Source: Trichinella spiralis (taxonomy: Eukaryota). Taken from it: a DNA stretch of 64,000 nt. A program made the translations under genes and the position numbers. Below the pieces are notes generated by a model. It was not told the origin of the DNA and ran no database searches. It saw only the letters and a program-made list of their open reading frames with translations. This document shows, piece after piece, positions 36,655-38,331 of this stretch (positions are counted from its first letter, which is position 1; each line of letters opens with the position of its first letter). The stretch covers positions 4,965,081-5,029,080 of the forward strand of contig NW_003526943.1 in the NCBI RefSeq assembly GCF_000181795.1, written 5' to 3'.

Positions 36655-38331
36655 ATGTCTTCGTTAAGTCAGCTGAGCAGAACAGTAAAGCAAGTCGATG
36701 AGGATTCCACTGAGCAGTTCATCACACAGCTGATAATTAATGTTGAAGAACACATTCTGCTTCATCATGTGAACAAGTTGCTTGCATTGCCAATGATTCA
36801 GCACATTATTCAGATTCCGACGCCTGAACCAAGTGGACAAATTAAGAAAGGGTTCGCAGAAACATGCTATTCAACTGCAGGTTTGCCGTATAATATGACA
36901 GGCAGAATAATTGGCCCGCGTGGTTGCACTGTGAAAGCTATTCAACTATTATGTGGATGTGGCATCGAGCTGAATTTCATAAAATATAATTTACTGCTAA
37001 TCCAGATATTCGTTGAACCAGATTACGAGAGCATTGTGAAGTTCAAAATTTGGAAAGCATTTCAGTTCATTTATTGTTTGCTTCGCATGGATCCTTCAGG
37101 AAAAGATATGGTGCGAGCAATTCAATCTGATGATTTCAAATTCTATGAAAGCCAGGTTGAAATCATCATAAAATTCTTTATCATTCAGCAGCATTGTCAT
37201 TCTGATATAAATGATGTAAGTGCTGTTTCAAGTAACTATTACTCAGTGGGTAAACGATTTTCAGTGGAAATGCTTAAAGTATTGGAAAAGCAAATGCTGA
37301 CCAGTCACATGAACAACTTGTTAGCATTGCCAATGTTCCATGATATTTTCAGCATTCCATCACCAGCAGCGAGTGGTAGAGTTACAAATGGATATGCTAA
37401 GAAGATCTATTCACTTCTCGACTTTCCATTTAATATTGCAGGCAGAATAATTGGTCCTCGTGGTTTAACTGTGAAAGTGATTCAAACAGTTTGTGGATGC
37501 CGCATCCGACTGCGTTGGAAAGAAGTCAATGCGCTACAAATCGAAGTATTCGTCGAGCGTGATTTTGAAAGTATTGTGAAATTCAAGCTTTGGAGAGCAT
37601 TTGAATGCATTAATTGCCTGCTAAAATCGTTTTCTTCTGACGAAGACATGGTGAATGCAGTTCAATTAAAAGATTTGAAATTCTATGCAACTCGAGCTGA
37701 AATGTTGAAGGTTCATTTTCCCGTTAATTTATGTGGCGCAGATTTGTTGAATGCTCCATTAAATGAGAAGAATTCATTCATCACTGTAGGTATAGTAGAT
37801 ATGTTTGAAAAACTTGAAGAAAATATTTTGCTTTATCACATGAAGAATTTGCTAACATTGACACGGCTGCAGAACTTTCTTCATCTTCCGCCACCTGTAC
37901 AAATTGGAGAAAAGGAAAACGCATTTGCTACGAAGATTTATTCATCTTTGCACTACCCATTTGATGTTGCAAAAAGAATAATCGGTCCTAATAGCTTAAC
38001 TGTAAAAGCGATACAAAATATTTGTGAATGTCGTATCCAGCTGCTACATGAAGAAAATAACACGATAAAAGTAATGGCATTCGCTGAAAATGATAATGAT
38101 AGCATCTTGATGTTCAAACTTTGGAAAGCGTTTCAATGCATTAATTGCCTACTCGAAATCCATCCATTTTATAAAGACGTTGTGGGAGAAATTCAGCAGG
38201 CGGATTTTCAGTTTTGGGAACGTCAAATGGAAATTATTTTCAATAGTCTTCCAATTATTTCCAGTCTGCCAGTGTCACAGAATGATGCCACCTTTACTGT
38301 TTCCAGTGAAAATTTAAAAAGGACGTGCTAA
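36655..38331 (+). CDS. Intronless protein with three tandem STAR/GLD-1/Quaking-type KH(-QUA2) modules
   Basis: Part of the 575-aa ORF, first ATG at 36655 behind an acaacag acceptor. Repeats YNMTGRIIGPRGCTVKAIQLLCGCGI, FNIAGRIIGPRGLTVKVIQTVCGCRI and FDVAKRIIGPNSLTVKAIQNICECRI compare with the STAR consensus YNFVGRILGPRG.T.K.L...TGCKI. Each is followed by a QUA2-like 'D.V..(I/V)Q..D' helix. Confidence 0.85.
   Translation: MSSLSQLSRTVKQVDEDSTEQFITQLIINVEEHILLHHVNKLLALPMIQHIIQIPTPEPSGQIKKGFAETCYSTAGLPYNMTGRIIGPRGCTVKAIQLLCGCGIELNFIKYNLLLIQIFVEPDYESIVKFKIWKAFQFIYCLLRMDPSGKDMVRAIQSDDFKFYESQVEIIIKFFIIQQHCHSDINDVSAVSSNYYSVGKRFSVEMLKVLEKQMLTSHMNNLLALPMFHDIFSIPSPAASGRVTNGYAKKIYSLLDFPFNIAGRIIGPRGLTVKVIQTVCGCRIRLRWKEVNALQIEVFVERDFESIVKFKLWRAFECINCLLKSFSSDEDMVNAVQLKDLKFYATRAEMLKVHFPVNLCGADLLNAPLNEKNSFITVGIVDMFEKLEENILLYHMKNLLTLTRLQNFLHLPPPVQIGEKENAFATKIYSSLHYPFDVAKRIIGPNSLTVKAIQNICECRIQLLHEENNTIKVMAFAENDNDSILMFKLWKAFQCINCLLEIHPFYKDVVGEIQQADFQFWERQMEIIFNSLPIISSLPVSQNDATFTVSSENLKRTC

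What the first reader, a model, noticed from the sequence alone, without database searches (positions are those of the whole stretch)
36655..38331. Intronless triple STAR-KH protein
Established: STAR proteins (GLD-1, Quaking, HOW, SF1) carry a single maxi-KH-QUA2 unit, and most dimerise through QUA1. Seen: three ~185-aa modules are fused in one intact exon, each preceded by a conserved 'E..L..H...LL.L' helix. The long variable loop after GCxI appears deleted. The third GxxG loop is GPNS, which probably impairs RNA binding. All other conserved genes here except the LRR gene are intron-rich. Inference: a retroposed, internally triplicated GLD-1-like gene acting as a single-chain multimer. It lies among the SL genes.
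Basis: partly seen in the sequence, partly recalled or inferred. Interest (0 to 1): 0.7.

Follow-up and report, generated by a model that had tools for sequence, protein, structure and literature searches.

The report
Trichinella triple-module Quaking-like RNA-binding protein
This gene of the parasitic worm Trichinella strings together three trimmed copies of the Quaking/GLD-1 RNA-binding unit, which normally occurs once per protein; it is present in several copies per genome across the genus and likely regulates mRNAs in the adult worm's reproductive tissue, probably mainly through its middle unit.

Summary
Confirmed, with corrections. 36655-38331 is one unspliced 558-aa ORF with three QKI/GLD-1-type KH-QUA2 modules (spacing 180 and 177 aa, 40-45% alike). 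Each lacks about 20 residues of the variable loop. It is not a one-off. It belongs to a genus-wide, multi-copy Trichinella family with two old subfamilies, and it derives from a Trichinella clade of single-module, loop-less STAR-like proteins. So loop loss came first, then triplication, then gene duplication. Module 1 has since been exchanged between paralogs. Module 2 keeps most QKI RNA-contact residues; module 1 lacks the K120/R124 pair; module 3 is the most degenerate (GPNS/GPHS/GPHN in subfamily A, GPHG in B). Family transcripts are unspliced and their level depends strongly on the sample. Two published T. spiralis genes of the same length and label are read only in adults. No QUA1 sequence match was found, though the predicted N-terminal helix overlays QUA1. 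Retroposition is not shown, present copies look like DNA-level duplicates, and no SL RNA gene was found nearby. Likely an adult germline mRNA regulator; binding is untested. New variant of a known kind.

The parts
36655..38331 (+). Single-exon ORF, 558 aa, three STAR-derived modules (subfamily A)
36706..37164 (+). Module 1 (aa 18-170): N-helix, loop-less KH with GPRG (36913-36924), QUA2; keeps the N97 and Q193 equivalents, lacks the K120 and R124 equivalents (G103, N107)
37246..37704 (+). Module 2 (aa 198-350): N-helix, loop-less KH with GPRG (37453-37464), QUA2; keeps N260, G263, R283, R287, Q337; likely the main RNA-binding unit
37777..38235 (+). Module 3 (aa 375-527): N-helix, loop-less KH with GPNS (37984-37995), QUA2; most degenerate (D437, K440, L464 at contact positions)
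35991..38638 (.). Approximate multi-copy unit (upstream region + ORF + 3' region). DNA-run depth is 43-65 over the ORF against 9-10 in the flanks; other copies diverge at 35991 and 38638
   Evidence: run X13, judged DNA from its even cover of the flanks; contig depth is only a rough guide to copy number
36587..36593 (+). TATA-like box 68 nt upstream of the ATG (consensus match only)
38563..38568 (+). AATAAA, candidate polyadenylation signal (consensus match only)

Best explanation
This is one copy of a multi-copy Trichinella gene family that encodes three loop-less QKI/GLD-1-type KH-QUA2 modules in one chain, and it likely acts as an mRNA-binding regulator in the adult germline, with module 2 predicted to be the main RNA reader. 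Shown: the architecture; QKI/GLD-1 ancestry; the order of events (loop loss in a single-module ancestor, triplication, A/B gene duplication before the encapsulated/non-encapsulated split, later module-1 exchange between paralogs); unspliced, sample-dependent transcription of the family; conserved reading frame. Inferred: module 2 binds single-stranded RNA through GPRG, beta-2 and QUA2 as QKI does, with lower or shifted specificity because R130 is deleted and K190 is replaced. Modules 1 and 3 would add weak contacts or protein-binding surface, so that the covalent array replaces the avidity that canonical STAR proteins gain by dimerising. The N-terminal helix would be a QUA1 remnant that braces QUA2. 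Adult-only expression is inferred from published genes matched by length and name; germline and translational control are inferred from that and from GLD-1's known role.
For: A profile of 13 modules hits GLD-1 at E 5e-16 and QKI at 9e-16, against SF1 9e-6, Sam68 2e-4 and MEX3/IMP/Nova/FBP 0.007 or weaker; it aligns through QUA2. The AF2 model of module 2 (pLDDT 86) matches QKI at Z 12.1 (rmsd 3.3, 139 aligned, chain 26-203) and GLD-1 at Z 11.8 (rmsd 4.0, 150 aligned), against PCBP/Nova/hnRNP K at 7.9 or less. Tree: 12 triple modules form one clade (100/100) inside the loop-less Trichinella clade (98/97), next to QKI/GLD-1-like STARs (88/86), and group by position. In module 2, GPRG, R(K120), R124 and the QUA2 Gln are kept in 57 of 57 near-full-length rows, many of them near-duplicates; in QKI, K120A/R124A cuts binding 20-fold (PMC5626755 passage). 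dN/dS between modules is 0.36, 0.36, 0.51; paralog or allele differences are 7 synonymous of 17 (p 0.045). RNA contig depth in X4 is 83-170, against 96-148 for ATP synthase g; in X17 one read pair against about 20x. PMC4053732 Table S5: EFV50004.1 and EFV56556.1 (1677 nt, 'putative KH domain protein') have 0/0/176 and 0/0/148 reads in NBL/ML/adult; single-module Tsp_09614 has 4/26/579; a gene annotated gld-1 (EFV52662.1) is expressed at all stages.
Against: No RNA binding, tissue or sex data exist. The adult-only rows are tied to this family by length and label only, from one library per stage and a truncated file. Adults also carry soma and embryos. Modules 1 and 3 lack several contact residues, and all three lack R130 (N97A/R130A cuts binding 10-fold). 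On the KH core alone (79 columns), an AU test did not reject grouping the triple modules with the multi-KH outgroup (p 0.059); that outgroup was unnamed protist-type proteins, one row of which looks SF1/BBP-like. QUA1 homology is not detectable by sequence. The module-2 fold used an alignment holding 3 canonical STAR rows, which may pull it toward the QKI structure. The RNA contigs at high depth carry other copies' alleles, so expression of this exact copy is not shown.
Confidence: 0.55

Rival explanations
1. A largely RNA-blind pseudo-STAR scaffold or decoy: the modules keep the fold in order to bind proteins, for example canonical GLD-1/HOW or translation repressors, and modulate them in adults.
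For: R130 is deleted in all modules; K120/R124 are lost in module 1; the second Gly of the loop is lost in 31 of 31 subfamily A module-3 rows. The N-helices are as conserved as the KH cores (0.78-0.90 against 0.78-0.87). A gene annotated gld-1 is retained and expressed.
Against: Module 2's GPRG and both basic contact residues are invariant in 57 of 57 rows, and module 2 is the only module with net basic composition (24 K+R against 17 D+E). GPRG in module 1 is also invariant.
Confidence: 0.2
2. An ampliconic germline gene family under genetic conflict (for example sex-linked or sperm-expressed), where copy number and recombination between paralogs matter more than the three-module design.
For: At least 6 family proteins are listed on one 12.04 Mb contig and 5 on one 2.38 Mb contig of another T. 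spiralis assembly. Subfamily A copies listed for T. spiralis are 95-99% alike to the window's protein. Mosaics occur: P0005 and P0009 are 99% alike in module 1 and about 62% in modules 2-3. Adult-only reads. This rival is compatible with RNA binding.
Against: No chromosome, sex or positive-selection data; dN/dS is below 1 in the tests that could be run.
Confidence: 0.15
3. A host-directed effector that mimics or blocks muscle QKI in the nurse cell.
For: Trichinella larvae live inside muscle cells and secrete a KH protein that has no signal peptide, TsKSRP (PMC10660789 passages).
Against: The length-matched genes have zero reads in muscle larvae and newborn larvae. The N-terminus has no marked hydrophobic stretch (best 11-residue hydropathy 0.87).
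Confidence: 0.03
4. A recently duplicated, non-functional or neutrally evolving sequence.
For: Many truncated or fragmentary models exist in the databases; RNA run X17 held only one read pair.
Against: Intact three-module ORFs occur in both Trichinella clades at 61-99% identity; dN/dS is below 1; there are abundant unspliced transcripts in X4 and X3.
Confidence: 0.04

Closest known systems
QKI / GLD-1 / HOW / ASD-2 subfamily of STAR proteins (PDB 4jvh, 4jvy, 2mjh)
   Same: KH with GPRG loop, P..G linker, QUA2 helix with the conserved Gln; best sequence and fold match.
   Different: [quoted passage not shown] About 20-aa variable loop deleted, no recognisable QUA1 sequence, degenerate contact residues in modules 1 and 3, multi-copy.
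Trichinella single-module loop-less STAR-like proteins (e.g. P0033, P0035, P0173/Tsp_09614; annotated 'quaking' or 'gld-1')
   Same: Same loop deletion, same ...LL.LP.F helix, same clade (98/97); Tsp_09614 is adult-enriched.
   Different: One module. The N-terminal region is 8 residues longer, which fits a helix-turn-helix. Only about 20-28% identical to the triple's modules. I found no description of them in 10 paper searches.
Steinernema carpocapsae TKR82656.1 (P0038), two tandem STAR-type KH units
   Same: Tandem duplication of a STAR KH unit in a nematode gene model.
   Different: Loop intact, copies nearly identical, single-member cluster, unverified model; separate origin on the tree.
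Multi-KH proteins (PCBP, hnRNP K, Nova, FUBP/KSRP, IMP)
   Same: Several type I KH domains in one chain with short variable loops; works like them in principle (avidity).
   Different: They have no QUA2 helix and score far lower (E 0.011 or weaker for IMP, Nova and FBP; Z 7.9 or less).
DAZ / RBMY ampliconic germline RNA-binding genes (recalled, no call)
   Same: Multi-copy germline RBP genes with internal amplification of the RNA-binding unit and gene conversion between copies.
   Different: RRM, not KH; analogy only. Sex linkage and testis expression are untested here.

Membership tests
STAR (QKI/GLD-1 type) | Type I KH domain of the STAR/BBP kind with GxxG loop | tested here: met
   PF22675, 3 stretches, E 3.4e-20; GPRG in modules 1 and 2; second Gly lost in module 3 of subfamily A
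STAR (QKI/GLD-1 type) | QUA2 helix C-terminal to the KH | tested here: met
   Profile aligns through QUA2 of GLD-1 and QKI; the Q193 equivalent is invariant in all three modules; model overlays QKI up to residue 203
STAR (QKI/GLD-1 type) | QUA1 dimerisation hairpin N-terminal to the KH | tested here: inconclusive
   No PF16544 hit in the whole protein or the three modules; profile score no better than shuffles, 256 of the 473 scored shuffles as high; 2 of 13 regions at p<0.05, neither from the triple. The predicted N-helix overlays QKI from residue 26 and GLD-1 from 161, from an alignment that included canonical STARs
STAR (QKI/GLD-1 type) | [quoted passage not shown] | tested here: not met
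   About 20 residues missing in all modules
STAR (QKI/GLD-1 type) | A single RNA-binding unit per chain | tested here: not met
   Three units
STAR (QKI/GLD-1 type) | Homodimerisation | not testable with these tools
   Needs biophysics
STAR (QKI/GLD-1 type) | Binding to (U/C)ACU(C/A)A(C/U) RNA | not testable with these tools
   Residue conservation only
Canonical multi-KH proteins (hnRNP K/PCBP/Nova/FUBP/IMP) | KH units closer to these than to STAR, without QUA2 | tested here: not met
   STAR structures rank first by profile and fold and QUA2 is present; the KH-core-only AU test was borderline, p 0.059
Retrogene | No introns | tested here: met
Retrogene | Poly(A) remnant, target-site duplication, intron-bearing parent | tested here: inconclusive
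   No A-run of 6 or more until 38943; no clear terminal repeats; copies share upstream DNA; gene structure of the single-module relatives was not available

The most novel reading that the evidence does not exclude
A new STAR architecture: a single-chain, three-unit STAR array that has replaced QUA1 dimerisation by covalent fusion and reads extended multi-site RNA elements. It is carried by an amplified, recombining adult-germline gene family in Trichinella in which paralogs swap module 1 to make new specificities, a KH-domain counterpart of DAZ/RBMY.
Probability: 0.25. Interest if true: 0.75.

Novelty: new variant of a known kind. Interest (0 to 1): 0.5.

Why it matters
STAR proteins are defined by one RNA-binding unit whose specificity is thought to come from dimerisation. 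A natural loop-less, three-unit form, with single-unit relatives in the same genome, allows direct tests of what the variable loop, QUA1 and valency contribute to RNA recognition. It also points to an apparently undescribed, genus-wide expansion of adult-expressed RNA regulators in Trichinella, whose germline control is little studied. The proteins are already in databases, labelled only 'protein quaking' or 'KH domain protein'. No function has been shown.

Tried and rejected
Complex prediction of module 1 with module 2: no verdict, score 0.00, alignments not used; not evidence either way. Full-length AF2 on 12 close homologs: pLDDT 40, and its fold search was not relied on. No whole genome was held, so paralog loci, synteny, chromosome and cross-species dN/dS could not be examined. 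ESM Atlas: no usable hit for aa 15-60; for aa 195-360 only what is probably the protein's own cluster at 0.89 and one weak KH cluster. No relative of the loop-less type was identified outside Trichinella: all 22 of 22, 12 of 12 and 24 of 24 hits were Trichinella, and the 9 loop-less single modules looked up were Trichinella. These searches are length- and word-limited, so absence from Trichuris is not shown. The look-up of sequencing runs listed no indexed holder on record as RNA; RNA status was judged from splice joints. X11 and X16 have no library record and were not used as expression evidence. X1's low signal is at the level of its intron background. The supplements of PMC10660789 gave no hit for five terms, which is uninformative because the ID scheme is unknown. 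The PMC11242134 supplement is cut before any expression table I could find. Tsp_12247 was absent from two tables and from the full-text search. Subfamily B could not be found by length. Two papers asked for by PMC id were not held. Ten paper searches found no description of the family. Three look-ups of earlier findings were empty. SL RNA genes were not found. One malformed outgroup row was dropped and the set thinned to 38 rows before the tree, and to 27 rows.

Full report
Observation. The window holds one open frame at 36655-38331 (+), 558 aa. Three RIIGP anchors at aa 84, 264 and 441 define modules 180 and 177 aa apart that are 40-45% identical; the repeats also show at DNA level with spacings of 540 and 531 nt. 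Pfam finds three KHDC4/BBP-type KH stretches. The best PDB sequence hits are QKI and GLD-1, split by a gap after beta-2. A profile of 13 modules puts that gap at about 20 residues and aligns through QUA2. It scores GLD-1 at E 5e-16, QKI 9e-16, SF1 9e-6, Sam68 2e-4, and MEX3/IMP/Nova/FBP 0.007 or weaker. An AF2 model of module 2 (pLDDT 86; the alignment included three canonical STARs) matches QKI at Z 12.1 and GLD-1 at Z 11.8, ahead of ordinary KH domains at 7.9 or less.

A family, not a single gene. All hits of three homolog searches were named Trichinella: 22 of 4373, 12 of 48 and 24 of 2759 candidates. The window's protein sits in a 44-member cluster, of which 15 were listed. Near-full-length forms occur in encapsulated and non-encapsulated species at 61-99% identity (57 rows, many near-duplicates). 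Six family proteins, the window's included, are listed on a contig of 12.04 Mb, and five on a 2.38 Mb contig of another T. spiralis assembly. In a run that behaves as DNA (X13, library not on record), contig depth is 43-65 over the ORF and 9-10 in the flanks, and other copies leave the window at 35991 and 38638. That suggests roughly five or six similar copies of a 2.65 kb unit that includes about 660 bp upstream of the ATG; depth is only a rough guide. Copies that carry their upstream DNA fit DNA-level duplication. There is no poly(A) remnant and no clear terminal repeat. Retroposition of an ancestor is possible but unshown.

History. The full HMMER search also returned divergent single-module proteins with the same loop deletion, all nine checked being Trichinella. 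On a 38-row tree, the triple modules form one clade (100/100) inside the loop-less clade (98/97), beside QKI/GLD-1-like proteins (88/86), and they group by position. So the loop was lost first, one module was then triplicated, and the gene then duplicated. On the KH core alone the same topology appears, but an AU test does not reject grouping with the multi-KH outgroup (p 0.059); that outgroup was unnamed and partly mislabelled, so QUA2 and the PDB scores carry the assignment. Modules 2 and 3 split 24 proteins into subfamilies A and B at 100/100; module 1 does not. P0005 (A) and P0009 (B) are 99% alike in module 1 and about 62% in modules 2-3, and the same mosaic appears in P0011 from other assemblies. 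I infer recombination or gene conversion between paralogs; assembly chimeras are not fully excluded.

RNA-binding surface. QKI residues N97, G104, K120, R124, R130, K190 and Q193 contact RNA; the double mutants K120A/R124A, N97A/R130A and K190A/Q193A lose 20-, 10- and 2-fold (PMC5626755, passages reporting Teplova et al.). GLD-1's loop is flexible in solution, and an insertion in it leaves affinity unchanged (PMC4081071, passages). I mapped these positions through the 4jvh alignment. Module 2 keeps GPRG, Arg at K120, R124 and the Gln in 57 of 57 rows, and N97 and G100 in 31 of 31 subfamily A rows (the QUA2 positions of module 2 were indexed one residue off and are read). Module 1 keeps GPRG but has G/S/R at K120 and N/I/D at R124. 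Module 3 has Asp at N97 and GPNS/GPHS/GPHN in A (31 of 31) but GPHG in B (26 of 26). R130 lies in the deleted loop. The N-terminal helix has no sequence match to QUA1, yet the model overlays it on the QUA1 region. It is 8 residues shorter than in the single-module relatives, so a QUA1-like hairpin may be lost. Whether the modules pack on each other is open.

Selection and expression. NG86 dN/dS between modules is 0.36, 0.36 and 0.51, with synonymous sites near saturation; among differences seen in other copies or alleles, 7 of 17 are synonymous against 21% expected (p 0.045). Four runs show GT-AG joints in neighbouring genes and so hold RNA. In X4 and X3, unspliced contigs cover most of the ORF at depth 83-170 and 32-70, against 96-148 and 198-261 for ATP synthase g. 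In X1 depth is 5-10, at background level, and X17 has one read pair. The high-depth contigs carry other copies' alleles, so expression is shown for the family, not for this copy. In PMC4053732 (passages and Table S5 rows, file cut), two 1677-nt 'putative KH domain' genes, the exact length of this ORF, have 0 reads in newborn and muscle larvae and 176 and 148 in adults. The link is by length and name only, with one library per stage. Single-module Tsp_09614 is adult-enriched there (4/26/579) and in PMC3429391 (10/0/0 tags adult/ML/NBL), while the two 519-nt single-module genes are low at all stages. A gene annotated gld-1 is expressed throughout, so the family adds to the canonical STAR gene and does not replace it.

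Mechanism. Most likely an adult, probably germline, mRNA regulator in which module 2 reads RNA and modules 1 and 3 add weak contacts or protein surface, the fused array standing in for dimerisation (0.55). Rivals: RNA-blind scaffold or decoy (0.2), conflict-driven ampliconic family (0.15, compatible with RNA binding), host-muscle effector (0.03), neutral sequence (0.04).

Comparison and novelty. It is STAR-derived and probably works like a multivalent STAR, but it fails two defining features (one unit per chain, PMC4735526 abstract; the long loop), and QUA1 is inconclusive. It is not a canonical multi-KH protein. A Steinernema gene model with two loop-intact STAR KH units shows that tandem forms can arise elsewhere. 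Ten paper searches found no description of the family; subscription journals are mostly not covered, and truncated supplements (PMC11242134, PMC4053732) may hold expression data that I could not see. The DAZ/RBMY analogy is recalled. 'Among the SL genes' was not confirmed. Verdict: real, new variant of a known kind, interest 0.5.

Noticed in passing
P0032-P0035, P0037, P0042, P0049, P0050, P0055, P0169-P0177 (not in window): A diverse Trichinella clade of single-module, loop-less STAR-like proteins, about 22-36% alike between subgroups. Several T. spiralis members are listed on one 6.37 Mb contig. Some have altered loops (GPGG, GPSG, GPCG, GPAG). It looks like a larger undescribed expansion than the triple itself.
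   Followed up: partly
P0104, P0015, P0014, P0144: Gene models with other module counts: four (module 1 twice, T. patagoniensis), two with an in-register module 1/2 hybrid (T6, T9), and a B copy joined to a downstream partial copy. Either unequal crossing-over or annotation and assembly artefacts; DNA not available.
   Followed up: partly
window 33779-34057 (related pieces near 20448, 25260, 33290): A palindromic repeat element with 70-nt arms (93% complementary). Reads map from both strands and contig depth is high in RNA runs; its Rfam hits to plant miRNA models are far below the gathering score. Probably a MITE-like repeat.
   Followed up: partly
window 16782-18282 and 22750-24255: Large inverted duplication, about 1.5 kb arms at 85-98%, around 4.5 kb of sequence; one arm starts near a small N gap and the other ends near a larger one, so assembly error is possible.
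   Followed up: no
window 13576-14514 and 15469-16433: Tandem duplication with a period of about 1.9 kb (89-100% alike).
   Followed up: no
window 25913-26146 (+): DUF5641 match (E 7e-9), typical of Bel-Pao retrotransposon integrase tails (recalled); looks like a decayed fragment in a GC-rich stretch at 25-29.5 kb that also holds a 199-aa ORF (28861-29460) with no Pfam hit.
   Followed up: partly
window 43254-45086 (-): Highly expressed spliced gene with a motif resembling NUDT9-type Nudix hydrolases (recalled; no Pfam hit on the last exon) and a hydrophobic C-terminal tail; its first exon lies outside the stretch or in the N gap at 45365.
   Followed up: no
window 47021-51478 (-): An N_BRCA1_IG/UBA gene and ATP synthase g lie head to tail; contigs in X1 and X3 join 49293 to 48505 with CT..AC ends, which suggests an operon or read-through transcript.
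   Followed up: no
window 38593-39135: The 3' flank matches C-terminal extensions of gene models P0021 (T. nelsoni, 69-80%) and P0159 (T. spiralis paralog, 42%), so part of it travels with some copies.
   Followed up: partly
window 857-3433 (-): Single long ORF (858 aa) for an LRR protein in a GC-rich (54-63%) stretch.
   Followed up: no
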